Below, one piece after another: positions 1,581 through 62,306 of a DNA stretch of 64,000 bases (position 1 is its first letter; the number at the start of each line of letters is the position of its first letter). Origin of the DNA: Eledone cirrhosa (taxonomy: Eukaryota); contig OZ024742.1 in the NCBI GenBank assembly GCA_964016885.1, forward strand, positions 317,688,001 through 317,752,000, in the 5' to 3' direction. The position numbers were made by a program, and so were the translations under genes. The notes beneath the pieces were generated by a model, which was not told where the DNA came from, made no database searches, and worked only from the letters and a program-made list of their open reading frames with translations.

Positions 1581-2552
1581 GTGCCTCCACATGTACATAT
1601 ATATGGGGTTATTTTTATACACTTGTATGTTTGTATGACATTTTCAGTGCGTTTATTTAACTATACATACACTTATCTGTTCGTGTGTATAATTGTATAA
1701 ATGCATCGTATTAAGGTATCTATTTATTACCCTATTTATCAAATTAAATTTAACCTAATGCCCTCACCAACTGTAACAACTTCATCACCATCACTGCTAT
1801 CACCAAAGCCACCACCATTGATAACCATCCTCATCGCTGCGACAATTGCTGCAACTGCTAGACTCACAGATGCCAGCAACTTCAACTGCTGCCACAACTG
1901 TAGATCTTACTGTTACTACTCCCCCATCCTCTTTTTAGCTGCTTATATGATTTTCAATCTTCAGCTGCAGTCAATACCGTTTAAGGTTGTTCAATTGTGT
2001 TTTGTTGTTACAATTACTGTTATTGTTTTACTGGGAAATCTTTTAAAATGTACCTGACAGAGTATGACATAACCTTTTCATATTGATTAGTTAGAAATTC
2101 TCCCAGCCCAGAACAACTACAGTAGTAGGGAGTGAATGTGATAGCTTGAAATAGCATCCAAAACTTTCCTAAATCAAAACCTCTCTGTTCTAAAGTGTGG
2201 AAGGCAACATAAGATAATGTAGTCATAGATACTTCCAAAAAGACAGAAGAATCTCTGCTGAAATGTCTTTTCTGTCTGATGAGGCTTGGTATGAAGCTAA
2301 ACAATAACAACTACAGCTCAACGTGAACAATATATACGGGTTCATGTGCGTATATATATATATATATATATATATATATATATAAGTTACTCCTGATGAT
2401 TTCTCACGAATGAAACAGTTCTAGTCCTGTAGAAGCTCTTATATATATATATATATATATATATATATATATATATATATAGGAATGACGGGGTTAATTT
2501 AGAGTAAGAAAATGCGAAGTAGTTTGAGATATTAAAGTCCTTTATTGATAAG

Positions 2553-2627
2553 GCTGTGATATATATTTCAATGACGACAGTAGCCACGCGATTCCGTGTA
2601 CCCAGTGCCATGATCTCATCAGACAGC
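2553..2627 (-). ncRNA. Type I hammerhead ribozyme (left arm)
   Basis: Reverse-complement copy with intact CTGATGA and GAAA cores. Confidence 0.72.
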
Positions 2628-2801
2628 TTCCCACATAATAAGGTTATGTTCTCGAGGCAATCCACATTGAAACGACAAGGGAACGGACAAAGATGGTGTA
2701 CTTGAAGCCTTCGCCCGTTCCCTTCAAGTACACCATCTTTGTCCGTTCCCTTGTCGTTTCAATTTAGATTGCCTCGCGAACGTAACCTTATTATGTAAGA
2801 A

Positions 2802-2876
2802 GCTGTCTGATGAGATCATGGCACTGGGTACGCGGAATCGCGTGGCCACTGTTGTCATTGAAATATATATCACAGC
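2802..2876 (+). ncRNA. Type I hammerhead ribozyme (right arm)
   Basis: GCTGT-CTGATGA-[extended stem II with TACGCG/CGCGTG]-GAAA-TATATA-TC-ACAGC. Confidence 0.75.
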
Positions 2877-3199
2877 CTTATCAATAAAGGACTTTAACAT
2901 CTGAAACTACTTCGCATGTATATTACATTTATATGTGCATATATATGTACGTGTATGTATGTATGTATGTATGTATGTATGTATGTATGTATGTATGTAT
3001 GTATGTATGTATGAATGTATGTATGTATGTATGTATTATCGTGTCGGTGTCGTTCGTTGTTTCTGGTATCTGAGAATTTAGTTCTTTCCCATTTTTCTAT
3101 TAGCTCCTCAATGACGACGACACTGATGATTGAGGAACCCAATTGATCCATAGAACCTGTGATGACTCAGCTGGCAATTGGGAGCAGGTTAAGTGCGTG

Positions 3200-3830
3200 G
3201 TTGATATGTCGGATAATTCTCTTCTCTTCTTTTAGTTTCGAAAATCGAAAGTTTCTTTGACGGTAAATTGACGCCAGTGGAAAGGTTGTTATGCAAATGG
3301 TTTTCATTTGCTTAAGATTTTACTTTAGTTGACCTTTGTATCAGCAGAAAAGACATCACGTAGTGTCTTCCTTGTTGTAGGTTCGCTAAAGTGTATTTTA
3401 TCAAGCAGTCCATTTCCCTTCGTCCTGGCGATATATCATGACTATCGAAGACGGTGTTTCATGATGGTAGTTTCTAGGCTTTAGCTGTTTGCACTATTAT
3501 GGACATAGGAGTTAGTTATATGGTCCTACCATTTGATGTTGAAAATGGAGCCAAGCTTTTGTTAACGAAAAAGGTCGAGCCTTTTATATTTCGTCGATAG
3601 AGTCCACGTTTCTCAACTATACTGCAAGGTAGGAATGATGACCGCTTGGTAGACCATCTGTTTTGTTTTTTGGTCCAGATCTTCGTTCTTGACGATTCGC
3701 TTTACCAATTTATCAAAAGCTGCAGCATGAACTGATACTATTCTGTTTTCAACATCTTTTGCAGAAGTAAATTTGCTGGAATATAGATGCCCAAGCTATG
3801 GAATGAGATCAACTCTTCCAGAGATGAACC
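3200..3830 (-). pseudogene. Degenerate RTE (BovB-like) LINE fragment
   Basis: Minus-strand TKQMVYQAVIIPTL..ETWT, typical of the post-RT region of RTE. Confidence 0.55.
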
Positions 3831-4059
3831 CTTCAATATGTACAGAGAAAATTATGTAGATAAATGTAGTAAACACCAATGCAAAAAATTGAGTGTGTAG
3901 AATGTTAAGATAAACTAAATAAAATGTAAAAGGCGGCATAATCAAATAAAAATTTAATTGGGGGAAATAGGCGCGAGAAATATTTCCCACATGCTAATTT
4001 AGTTATATAGTAAATAAAGTCCTTTTTATATTCACTGATTGGGTAGAAGATCACTGGTG

Positions 4060-60073: not shown

Positions 60074-60726
60074 AATAATTGTTTCTGTTTTAGGCACAAG
60101 GCCAACAATTTTGGGAGAGGGGAAAGTCGATTAAATCAACCCCAGTGCATTACTGCTGTTCTGCTTTATCGACCCCAAAAGGATGAAAAGCGTAGTAGAC
60201 CTTGGTGGGATTTGAACTCAGAACGTAAAAATCTGGAATAAATGCCGCAAAGCAATTGCTCCGACATTCTAACGATTCTAAAAGAGTTACTCGACACAAT
60301 ACATACATGTTCCTTCATTGTAACTTATATAGAGATTTGAAAACTATATATGAATGTGTGTACATGTGTGTCATTTTGTGTGGGGGTGCTTTTCATTGTA
60401 GAAATAATTGTTTCTACTTTTGGCACAAGGCCAGCAATTATCCCAGTGTATTACTGGTACTTTATTTTATCGGCCCCGTAAGGATGAAAGGCAAAGTTTA
60501 ACCTCGGCGGGATTTGAACTCAGACCATAAAGGGACGTAACTCTTTGCTGCAAAGCATGGCGTCCGACCTTCTACCGATACTGCCAATCCACCACCTTTC
60601 TATTGTAGAAATAATGGTTTCTGCTTTAGGCACAATGCCAACAATTTTGGGGGAAAGGGAAAGTCGATTAAATCGACCTCAGTGCGTTACTGGTACCTTG
60701 TTTTATCTATTCCGTAAGGATGAAAG
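60074..60726 (-). mobile_element. Three SINE copies (60074-60282, 60404-60597, 60609-60726)
   Basis: Same family motifs; shared upstream flank. Confidence 0.72.
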
Positions 60727-60879
60727 ACACGACTGAACACAATAGATACACATTCATTCATTGTAACTTATATGTAAGTTTCATAAATATATATATGGAT
60801 GTGTGTACATACGTATATTGTCTGTGTATGTGTGTGTTTTACTGTACAAATAATAAAAAGAGGTACTCAAAATTATACA

Positions 60880-61133
60880 CAGGGGTGTTGGAACTGGGGG
60901 GGGGGGGGCCACTCCATAATTATATTTTTTCTCTCCAAACTACCAAAGCACATCTATTTGTATATACGCTATAATTTATGTACATGTTATGTTTATCGCA
61001 TATCGAAGTTTTTTTATGTCTAGGTGGATATTTGATGATAACAGCTAAACTAATCACTACAGCTAAATTGACCAAATTTGCCCGCCCTCCCTCCCCTACC
61101 TAATCTAATTCAGAAATACTTCCACCTCCCCTG
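60880..61133. mobile_element. Possible non-autonomous DNA transposon
   Basis: Imperfect TIR CAGGGG.G.TGGAA; ATACA on both sides. Confidence 0.4.
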
Positions 61134-61237
61134 ATACATACACATTCATTCACTCTAACTTATATGTAAATGTCATAACTATATATGAATGTGTGTACGT
61201 ATGTAAAAATTGTGTGTGCGTGTTTTTCATTGTAGAA

Positions 61238-61463
61238 ATAATTGTTTCACCTTTAGGCACAAGGCCAGCAATTTGAAGGGGGTGGGGGTAAAGTCGATTA
61301 AATCGACCCCAGTGTATTACTGGTGCTTTATTTTATCGACACCGTAAAGATGAAAGGCAAAGTTAACCCCTGAGGGATTTGAACTGAGGATGTAAAGGGC
61401 CATAGCTCTGTGCTGAAAAGCATGGTGCCCGACGCTCTACCGATTCTGCCAATCCACCGCCCT
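61238..61463 (-). mobile_element. SINE (long subtype)
   Basis: Same family motifs. Confidence 0.72.
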
Positions 61464-61827
61464 TTTCATTGTATTTTCATTGTACAAATAATAAAAAGAG
61501 GTACTCAATACAACAACAAAGTGTAAACATTTATTTATCGTAGTATTCATACCCCCTGTATTACTACTAAGTTTACCATTTTATAGTACTGATTGTGTTC
61601 ACGTTAAGCTATCAACGTTAAACGAATGGAAACTCTGAGTAGTAATGCAGAGTGGTTTTATCACAATACATGTGTGTGAGAGCGCGTGTGTATCTGTATG
61701 GATATATATATATATACAGAAAGAGAGAGAGAGAGAGAGAGAGAAAGAGAGAGGAACATATATATATATATACATATGTATATATATATATGTGTATATA
61801 TATATATATATATATATATATATATAT

Positions 61828-62306
61828 ATTGTTATGCTTTGGGAGGGTCATGTTGCCAATAAGAAACACACGCACCAGTTGCTTCACTCCAATTTATTAT
61901 AAATTAAATTTATAAATTTAAGAATTTATAAATTTTCGGTTGGTTGGTTGGTTCCATAACCGGACGGTTTTTCATATATTATCAAAGTTCTTTCGTCATA
62001 CATTCTGTGACCTCTTCAGTGACTGGGGATTCTTTTCTTTGTTTTTGTGCCTCTCCTTTGTACTGTCCTACGCCATCTTGAGGCACAAAAACAAAGAAAA
62101 GAATCCCCAGTCACTTAAGAGGTCACAGAATGTGTGACGAAAGAACTTTGACAATATATGAAAAACCGTCCGGTTAAGGAACCAAACAACCAACCGAAAA
62201 TTTATAAATTCTTAAATTTATAAATTTAATTTATAATAAATTGGAGTGAAAGCAACTGGTGCATGTGTTTCTTATTGGCAACATGACCCTCCCAAAGCAT
62301 AACAAT
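61828..62306. mobile_element. Palindromic element (~226-bp arms) in (TA)n with hammerhead-like core
   Basis: Arms 61828-62053 and 62080-62306. Minus strand of the left arm (61981-62022) reads GTCA-CTGAAGA-GGTCACAGAATGTATGAC-GAAA-GAAC-TT-TGA; the right-arm core is CTTAAGA. Confidence 0.75.

What the first reader, a model, noticed from the sequence alone, without database searches (positions are those of the whole stretch)
2512..62306. Dispersed, sequence-unrelated palindromes in (TA)n carrying paired hammerhead ribozymes
Seen: fold-back elements at 2512-2917, 6235-7262, 42855-43181 and 61828-62306 show no obvious primary similarity. Each arm nevertheless carries CUGANGA..GAAA..UH (intact or one change) with a minimal, often palindromic stem III (TATATA, CAATTG). 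Established: PLE termini contain minimal type I hammerheads that work as dimers, and PLE insertions often carry an inverted terminal copy. Inference: these are extreme truncation products or non-autonomous ribozyme hairpin elements of several PLE families. Read-through would give long dsRNA, with a ribozyme available on either strand.
Basis: partly seen in the sequence, partly recalled or inferred. Interest (0 to 1): 0.75.

Follow-up and report, generated by a model that had tools for sequence, protein, structure and literature searches.

The report
Twin-primed Penelope stubs carrying hammerheads
The four mirror-image DNA pieces are short head-to-head copies of the hammerhead-bearing ends of four abundant Penelope-type jumping-gene families, a shape already described, and their unequal outer ends suggest that each was likely built anew when both strands of one cut copied the front end of the element's RNA.

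Summary
The palindromes are real and mutually unrelated. All eight arms carry a hammerhead-type motif, but only four have an intact canonical core. Each arm belongs to a family with 1,459-2,717 first-look candidates in this 3.0-Gb genome. Three families sit directly behind Penelope-like RT plus C-terminal endonuclease ORFs: two have Hydra-clade motifs, one a Neptune/Nematis-type linker. The fourth is the end of a ~1.3-kb non-coding unit.

They are not self-copying hairpin elements: 61 of 117 sampled copies have no inverted partner and junctions differ. Each family has two preferred outer ends, short and tailed. Of 40 classifiable fold-backs, 38 pair one of each (p 9e-9), and 9 inverted pieces hold only tail sequence absent from the partner arm. 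In one family, arms pile up at one base, preceded by an extra G in 55 of 104 matches (next base: 3 of 39), as a capped RNA start would give. This favours twin priming on a sense RNA over the published antisense self-priming idea.

Read-through RNA is predicted to bury the ribozymes. The architecture is in print, and this scan reached the same reading on other DNA, including this genome.

The parts
2479..2724 (-). E1 left arm: end of a ~1.3-kb non-coding hammerhead unit, with a partial tail (+33)
   Evidence: (L001)
2550..2630 (-). E1 left type I hammerhead, intact core (C3 at 2622, predicted cut after 2558), stem III TATATA
2722..2917 (+). E1 right arm, short end; 3-nt overlap with the left arm at the junction
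2799..2879 (+). E1 right type I hammerhead, intact core (C3 at 2807, predicted cut after 2871)
6056..6961 (-). E2 left arm: pLTR plus full ~180-nt tail of a PLE family with Hydra-clade motifs; inner end at -408, within the family's 5' cluster
   Evidence: (L091)
6350..6460 (+). Later insertion of a SINE-like repeat fragment into E2's left arm only
6647..6833 (+). Later insertion of a SINE-like repeat into E2's left arm with a 17-bp target duplication (6630-6646 / 6834-6850)
6473..6602 (-). E2 left hammerhead variant: U4C core, 95-nt stem/loop II, stem III CAATTG (C3 at 6594)
6952..7262 (+). E2 right arm, short end; hammerhead at 7014 with damaged stem II
42771..43020 (-). E3 left arm: pLTR plus tail of a second PLE family with Hydra-clade motifs; intact hammerhead (C3 at 42951, predicted cut after 42907)
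   Evidence: (L031)
43021..43186 (+). E3 right arm, short end; hammerhead degraded (G5C, broken stem II)
61828..62080 (-). E4 left arm, short end, pLTR of a PLE family with a CX4CxxC linker; intact hammerhead core (C3 at 62019), stem III GAAC
   Evidence: (L061)
62080..62306 (+). E4 right arm, also short (one of the 2 exceptions to the short/tailed rule); hammerhead G5U at 62114

Best explanation
Each palindrome is a single insertion made of two head-to-head, 5'-limited copies of the hammerhead-bearing terminal repeat of a Penelope-like family, likely produced by twin priming: the element's enzyme would nick both strands of a (TA)n target and start one cDNA at each of two preferred sites on one sense RNA. 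Shown here: family membership and linkage to RT/endonuclease ORFs for E2-E4; two preferred outer ends per family; one short plus one tailed arm in 38 of 40; the tail is the sequence that leads into the ORF start (E2, E3); joints with 1-11 nt overlap in 33 of 56. Inferred: the two start sites lie near the 5' end of the RNA. Many cDNAs then run off the capped start, which sets the modal arm length and leaves an extra G in E3. The two cDNAs are then joined by microhomology-mediated repair. The hammerheads come along as part of the repeat and have no role peculiar to the palindrome. E1 would be mobilised in trans as a non-coding unit by a PLE protein.
For: ORF linkage: (Pfam RVT_1 E 7e-5 and GIY-YIG E 8e-5 for E4's family; motifs read by eye for E2 and E3). 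End asymmetry: short/short 2, short/tail 25, tail/short 13, tail/tail 0, Fisher p 8.7e-9. A partly overlapping second E3 sample gives 19 of 22; its 3 exceptions are tandem duplicates of one locus. Nine inverted pieces consist only of tail sequence that the partner arm lacks. Tail continues into the ORF start in longer E2 and E3 copies. Arms of one locus share 31 non-consensus bases over 31 loci, against 6.55 expected from cross-locus pairs (summed by hand; Poisson p 4e-12, or 1.5e-7 without L056). E3 5' ends: 16 of 29 main arms lie at -157 to -184, and 12 of 17 length-unselected inverted pieces at -153 to -186. Non-templated base before A(-177): G 55, A 28, T 21; at the next position G is 3 of 39 (Fisher p 3e-7). 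Literature: a purified PLE protein cleaves and extends both strands, is predicted to be a dimer, and starts internally at two sites that delimit the tail (PMC11167929). An untemplated 5' G is read as a cap trace for L1 (PMC9341517).
Against: The window's own E4 is short/short, and E1's tail is only 33 of about 86 nt. 14 of 56 inverted pieces end at neither preferred site, and 2 run off the locus edge. The window's E2 and E3 arms share no private variant. Shared variants could also come from gene conversion between arms or from one source locus with two RNAs. In at least 5 of 30 inspected G cases the G may come from the partner arm, one is a point change in a run-through copy, and some rows are duplicates. 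The cap test was done for E3 only. Upstream pLTRs of longer copies have variable 5' ends. Continuity of tail into ORF was not shown for E4. No RNA or biochemical data.
Confidence: 0.7

Rival explanations
1. Self-priming or snap-back: one cDNA, or an antisense RNA as proposed for Adineta Penelope, folds back and copies itself, giving the second arm.
For: Junction overlaps and small junction palindromes are common; arms share variants; proposed in PMC3846280 (passages).
Against: A self-copy cannot contain sequence that the first arm lacks: 25 of 40 inverted pieces are tailed beside a short arm, and 9 are tail-only. The extra G lies at the 5' end of the sense strand.
Confidence: 0.08
2. Two separate RNA-protein complexes, each with its own RNA, prime the two ends of the break.
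For: Overlapping arms need either strand displacement or two templates; 16 of 31 loci share no non-consensus base.
Against: Independent RNAs should not force one short and one tailed end (38 of 40) or give an excess of shared variants (31 vs 6.55). Arms from different families joined head to head were not searched for.
Confidence: 0.15
3. The hairpins are discrete non-autonomous ribozyme elements, or MITE-like elements with terminal inverted repeats, that transpose as a unit.
For: Modal sizes recur, and in E3 a near-identical junction recurs at several loci (L229, L236, L237).
Against: 61 of 117 copies are single-armed; arm lengths range from about 25 nt to over 2 kb; arms are collinear with RT-EN ORFs; the recurrent-junction loci differ in which arm is tailed.
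Confidence: 0.04
4. The fold-backs are assembly or library chimeras.
For: No listed contig or read bridged the window's E4 junction in 4 runs from at most 2 samples, and depth is zero at 62074-62077 in the 3 contig sets. No listed piece spans E3.
Against: Arms differ by 5-11 substitutions, one arm carries later insertions with a target duplication, and ends follow a biological rule. An opposite-strand joint of the E3 family, different from the window's, appears in raw reads of two other samples (6 and 11 reads, 6-7 starts). The runs may be from other individuals and are filtered.
Confidence: 0.03

Closest known systems
Endonuclease-bearing PLE insertions with an inverted 5'-truncated copy and a one-sided tail (PMC8557442 passages and Fig. 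2 legend; PMC3846280 passages)
   Same: Head-to-head inverted pLTR, tail at one end, hammerhead in the pLTR, partial tandems, microsatellite targets.
   Different: Tails are 60-182 nt rather than 30-40; the whole insert is only the two termini; the one-short/one-tailed rule and the extra G are counted here; those papers suggest endonuclease resolution or antisense self-priming.
Hydra clade PLEs (PMC8557442, section 11 passages)
   Same: E2 and E3 proteins show RWK/RWR, DKT, a CxCX5C linker, a C-terminal endonuclease and (TA)n targets.
   Different: No tree was built; the ~3-kb length was not measured exactly; E2's hammerhead has U4C and a 95-nt stem/loop II.
Minimal PLE hammerheads (PMC4209133, parts 1-2 of 4 read)
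   Same: Type I, short stem I, long stem II, palindromic stem III, extra base before stem II (E4). The paper already reports pairs of such motifs about 100-700 bp apart on opposite strands and links the dispersed motifs to truncated PLEs.
   Different: Stem III here is 4-6 nt; E1 and E3 lack the G10.1-C11.1 pair; opposite-strand pairs cannot form the tandem dimer described there.
Anolis Poseidon in vitro mechanism (PMC11167929, parts 1-2 of 4 read)
   Same: Two internal start sites delimiting the tail, both strands extended, AT-rich target, ribozyme cleavage not needed for insertion.
   Different: Other clade; the parts read do not derive the inverted structure from use of one site per strand.
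Animal non-LTR retrozymes (PMC7229834 abstract and outline; 10.64898/2026.07.22.740005 part 1 of 5), for E1's family
   Same: Non-coding unit with one type I hammerhead, head-to-tail continuation, PLE-type ends.
   Different: Unit 1.27-1.51 kb versus 170-400 nt; seen only as partial tandems; circles not tested.
L1 twin priming (Ostertag and Kazazian 2001; seen only as a reference-list entry, mechanism recalled)
   Same: Both target strands prime, giving an inversion joined by microhomology.
   Different: In L1 the second primer lands at variable internal sites and the pieces do not overlap; here two preferred sites are used and arms often overlap.

Membership tests
Endonuclease-bearing PLE (E2, E3, E4 families) | Single ORF with RT and C-terminal GIY-YIG endonuclease directly upstream of the terminal repeat | tested here: met
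   Pfam RVT_1 and GIY-YIG hits for E4's family; E2 and E3 had no relevant Pfam hit and were recognised by motifs (YRDD; YIGST/YIGAT) read by eye. The sampled ORFs are broken.
Endonuclease-bearing PLE (E2, E3, E4 families) | Partial tandem: pLTR repeated upstream of the ORF, tail = start of the next unit | tested here: met
   for E2 and E3 (output partly cut); inconclusive for E4 (1 of 20 loci).
Endonuclease-bearing PLE (E2, E3, E4 families) | Hammerhead in the pLTR | tested here: met
Endonuclease-bearing PLE (E2, E3, E4 families) | Inverted 5'-truncated copy with tail at one end | tested here: met
   51 of 89 loci have an inverted piece.
Endonuclease-bearing PLE (E2, E3, E4 families) | Target-site duplication | tested here: inconclusive
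   Flanks are (TA)n, so a duplication cannot be read, as PMC8557442 also notes.
Endonuclease-bearing PLE (E1 family) | RT and endonuclease ORF in the unit | tested here: not met
   26 of 30 loci run from the tail into the same non-coding body; tblastn hits in 2 of 30 lie at locus edges.
Hydra clade (E2, E3) | RWK motif, DKT motif, CxCX5C linker | tested here: met
   E2: RWK, DKT, CNCRYPNAC; E3: RWR (variant), DKT, CNCRIKSNC (definition).
Hydra clade (E2, E3) | CCHH motif absent from the endonuclease | tested here: met
   By eye on translations; no alignment to references.
Hydra clade (E2, E3) | RT phylogeny groups with Hydra | not tested
   No reference proteins were on hand.
Neptune or Nematis clade (E4) | CX2-5CxxC linker and CCHH motif | tested here: met
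   CIDKKCIIC, and C, C, H, H around the YIG motif, by eye.
Neptune or Nematis clade (E4) | RT phylogeny separating the two clades | not tested
   No reference proteins were on hand.
Non-LTR retrozyme (E1 family) | Non-coding unit with a type I hammerhead | tested here: met
Non-LTR retrozyme (E1 family) | Unit of about 170-400 nt | tested here: not met
   Periods 1270-1512 nt in 10 loci.
Non-LTR retrozyme (E1 family) | Expressed as linear and circular RNA | not testable with these tools
   No RNA holder was listed for the one stretch searched, which was E3.
MITE or TIR DNA transposon | Paired terminal inverted repeats with fixed size across copies | tested here: not met
   61 of 117 copies single-armed; variable arms; arms continue into RT ORFs.
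Type I hammerhead ribozyme | CUGANGA, GAAA and UH core with three helices | tested here: met
   4 of 8 arms canonical; 1 family-wide variant; 3 damaged.
Type I hammerhead ribozyme | Self-cleavage | not testable with these tools
   Needs an in vitro assay.

The most novel reading that the evidence does not exclude
PLE proteins of at least two clades insert as a dimer on one capped sense RNA, with one subunit priming at the short site and the other at the tail site. The palindromes are then a genomic record of the RNA's transcription start and both priming sites, and the same machinery moves a ~1.3-kb non-coding hammerhead unit, several times larger than described animal retrozymes.
Probability: 0.5. 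Interest if true: 0.65.

Novelty: new member of a known kind. Interest (0 to 1): 0.42.

Why it matters
How Penelope-like elements build their tandem and inverted ends is named as an open problem in PMC8557442, and PMC3846280 could not decide between a sense and an antisense template. The counts here (one short plus one tailed end, tail-only inverted pieces, an extra G at a fixed 5' base) give base-level predictions for transcription start and priming sites that can be tested directly. The palindromes themselves are ordinary by-products. At about half of the sampled copies they are a large predicted source of intramolecular dsRNA, but nothing here shows that they are transcribed or used.

Tried and rejected
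Rfam scan: no hammerhead among the 150 of 193 matches shown; hits are microsatellite and hairpin look-alikes. The first descriptor scan missed E1, E2 and E4 because stem II and stem III limits were too tight; it was replaced. The first end classification was misled by (TA)n left in the references and gave 30 of 49 mixed pairs; it was redone with trimmed references. Three of 120 loci were dropped as duplicates before counting (L002 and L033 are the other arm of a listed locus; L017 duplicates L016).

ADAR trace: shared variants are A>G 6, T>C 7, G>A 7 of 31, so there is no clear A-to-G excess in this sample. Ends at the ribozyme cut (-46, -132, -52, -156) do not match the main clusters; a few E3 ends near -52 to -55 lie in a TATATA tract and were not pursued. 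An ORF for E1's family was not found. Pfam gave no relevant hit for E2/E3 proteins. Sequencing runs: no RNA holder listed. The window's own junctions were not bridged.

Literature: searches listed no paper that applies twin priming or a cap trace to PLE inversions; 'twin priming' has 0 occurrences in the four PLE papers listed. The library omits most subscription papers. Supplements were not read, and those of PMC8557442 and PMC11167929 may bear on clade assignment and start sites. The host was not identified by a call; the SINE-like repeat looks octopod from recall.
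Full report
Setting. The window is G000:C3:317688001-317752000 in a 3.0-Gb animal assembly. It is rich in microsatellites, holds five related LINE copies with APE and RT domains, and a separate 5'-truncated Penelope-like element at about 40059-42689.

Observation. After masking microsatellites, the four stated fold-backs are the four strongest local inverted hits. Arms differ by 5-11 substitutions and share nothing longer than 19 nt between elements. 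All are head-to-head with the outer ends in AT microsatellite. A descriptor scan finds a type I hammerhead in 7 of 8 arms, always on the strand pointing outward and never on the antisense of the same arm; 0-1 of 500 dinucleotide shuffles reach each score. Four cores are canonical. E2's U4C core with a 95-nt stem/loop II is the family form. The right arms of E2, E3 and E4 are damaged. That G5 changes inactivate a hammerhead is recalled knowledge.

What the arms are. Each arm retrieved 1,459-2,717 first-look candidates in the genome, of which 40 were scored. Longer copies show E2, E3 and E4 arms directly downstream of RT plus C-terminal endonuclease ORFs. Pfam gives RVT_1 and GIY-YIG for E4's family only. 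E2 and E3 proteins carry RWK/RWR, DKT and CxCX5C, the Hydra features listed in PMC8557442 (passages). E4 has a CX4CxxC linker and CCHH, which means Neptune or Nematis. No tree was built. E1 has no ORF: in 26 of 30 loci its tail runs on into the same non-coding body, and 10 loci with two copies give periods of 1270-1512 nt.

How copies end. I mapped 117 loci (120 less 3 duplicates; the four window loci included) on single natural reference copies. Each family has a short outer end and a tailed one (+86, +182, +93, +60 in the references). In longer E2 and E3 copies the tail continues into the ORF start (output partly cut). 56 loci have an adjacent inverted piece (E1 5 of 28, E2 19 of 30, E3 17 of 29, E4 15 of 30). 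Of these, 40 could be classed at both ends, 14 ended elsewhere and 2 left the locus. The table is short/short 2, short/tail 25, tail/short 13, tail/tail 0 (p 8.7e-9). The window's E4 is one of the two exceptions, and three E1 tails are partial. Nine inverted pieces are tail only, beside a short main arm, so they cannot be copies of that arm. Junctions overlap by 1-11 nt in 33, are blunt in 4 and have 1-35 extra nt in 19.

One template or two. Over 31 fold-backs with overlapping arms, 31 non-consensus bases are shared within loci against 6.55 expected from cross-locus pairs (summed by hand). Sixteen loci, including the window's E2 and E3, share none. Gene conversion or a common source locus could give the same excess. 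The shared changes show no clear A-to-G excess.

Inner ends. E3 arms cluster at about -175, far upstream of the ribozyme cut at -52. E2 has 12 of 30 main arms at -397 to -416. In E3 the cluster peaks at the A of TCACT, a string called initiator-like in PMC3846280. Exact genome-wide matches beginning at that A with a non-templated base before it number 104: G 55, A 28, T 21. One base further in, G is 3 of 39 (p 3e-7). Of 30 G loci inspected (30 of 55), 29 are junctions and 1 a point change; at least four have G directly after (TA)n, at least five could take the G from the partner arm, and some rows are duplicates. An untemplated G is read as a cap trace in L1 (PMC9341517 passages). The idea that arms run off the RNA start came from earlier scan notes; the G test is my own.

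Mechanism. A purified PLE protein cleaves and extends both strands, is predicted to be dimeric, starts internally at two sites that delimit the tail, and does not need ribozyme cleavage (PMC11167929, parts 1-2). Together with the counts above, the simplest reading is twin priming on one sense RNA, run-off or stalling, and microhomology joining (confidence 0.7). Snap-back or antisense self-priming (PMC3846280) fails on the tailed and tail-only inverted pieces. Two independent RNAs remain possible.

Function of the paired ribozymes. In the folded whole palindrome the stem I pairs have probability 0.000 in 5 of 5 cases. The two motifs lie on opposite strands and cannot form the tandem dimer of PMC4209133. 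Single-arm folds also give low values in 4 of 5 cases, so the model does not show that free arms are active. No RNA holder was listed.

Reality of the loci. Raw reads of two other samples show an opposite-strand joint of the E3 family. The window's E4 junction was not bridged in four runs. Arm divergence and one-arm insertions with a target duplication argue against an artefact.

Novelty. Inverted 5'-truncated copies, one-sided tails, (TA)n bias and pLTR hammerheads are in PMC8557442 and PMC3846280. Opposite-strand hammerhead pairs 100-700 bp apart are in PMC4209133. Five searches listed no paper stating the twin-priming or cap reading for PLEs. Earlier notes of this scan reach it on other genomes and many times in this one; these are unchecked notes and not independent support. 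Verdict: real, new members of a known kind, with useful mechanistic counts; interest 0.42.

Noticed in passing
window 40059-42689 (+): 5'-truncated PLE with Hydra-type RT/EN (438-aa open stretch, 42% identical to an E3 relative) and an intact hammerhead at 42599 with palindromic stem III TGCGCA; it ends in the (TA)n tract next to E3.
   Followed up: partly
window 2383-2441 (+): A 59-nt hammerhead stub between (TA)n tracts, lacking the 5' strand of stem I; a fifth family, present in 21 of 291 fetched loci, often as a tiny head-to-head palindrome.
   Followed up: partly
window 34940-35110: Small palindrome of another abundant family (23 of 291 loci) with a longer left end and (TA)n on the right; looks like a further short/tailed stub that turns inside a hammerhead-like stem.
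   Followed up: partly
window 39692-39796, 31151-31214, 37706-37758, 62367-62574: Further AT-rich fold-backs; the three queried (39692, 31151, 62367) had no match in 291 fetched loci.
   Followed up: partly
window 7514-23000 and 54756-59431 (-): Five related LINE copies (75-91% identical) with APE, RT and zf-RVT domains, in the same orientation and partly adjacent; two keep ORFs over 1000 aa.
   Followed up: no
window 36873-39283 and 62981-64000: A ~310-bp repeat in several direct and inverted copies, 91-96% identical, seen in 13 of 291 loci.
   Followed up: no
window about 3200-5900 (-): Weak match (E 0.007) to the Hydra-type RT motif at 4590-4528; probably a decayed PLE.
   Followed up: no
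L122 (G000:C2:136465000-136471500): A 3.5-kb E2-family insertion with 1.6-kb inverted arms at 98.9% identity, the long end of the same size series.
   Followed up: partly
L044 and L039 junctions: Junctions with repeated short copies of the E3 5' end (over ten 30-nt repeats in L044), suggesting repeated re-priming at the RNA start.
   Followed up: no
E2 family, 28 parsed of 30 copies: Family-wide CCGAUGA core and a 95-nt stem/loop II; such motifs would be missed by standard hammerhead descriptors.
   Followed up: partly
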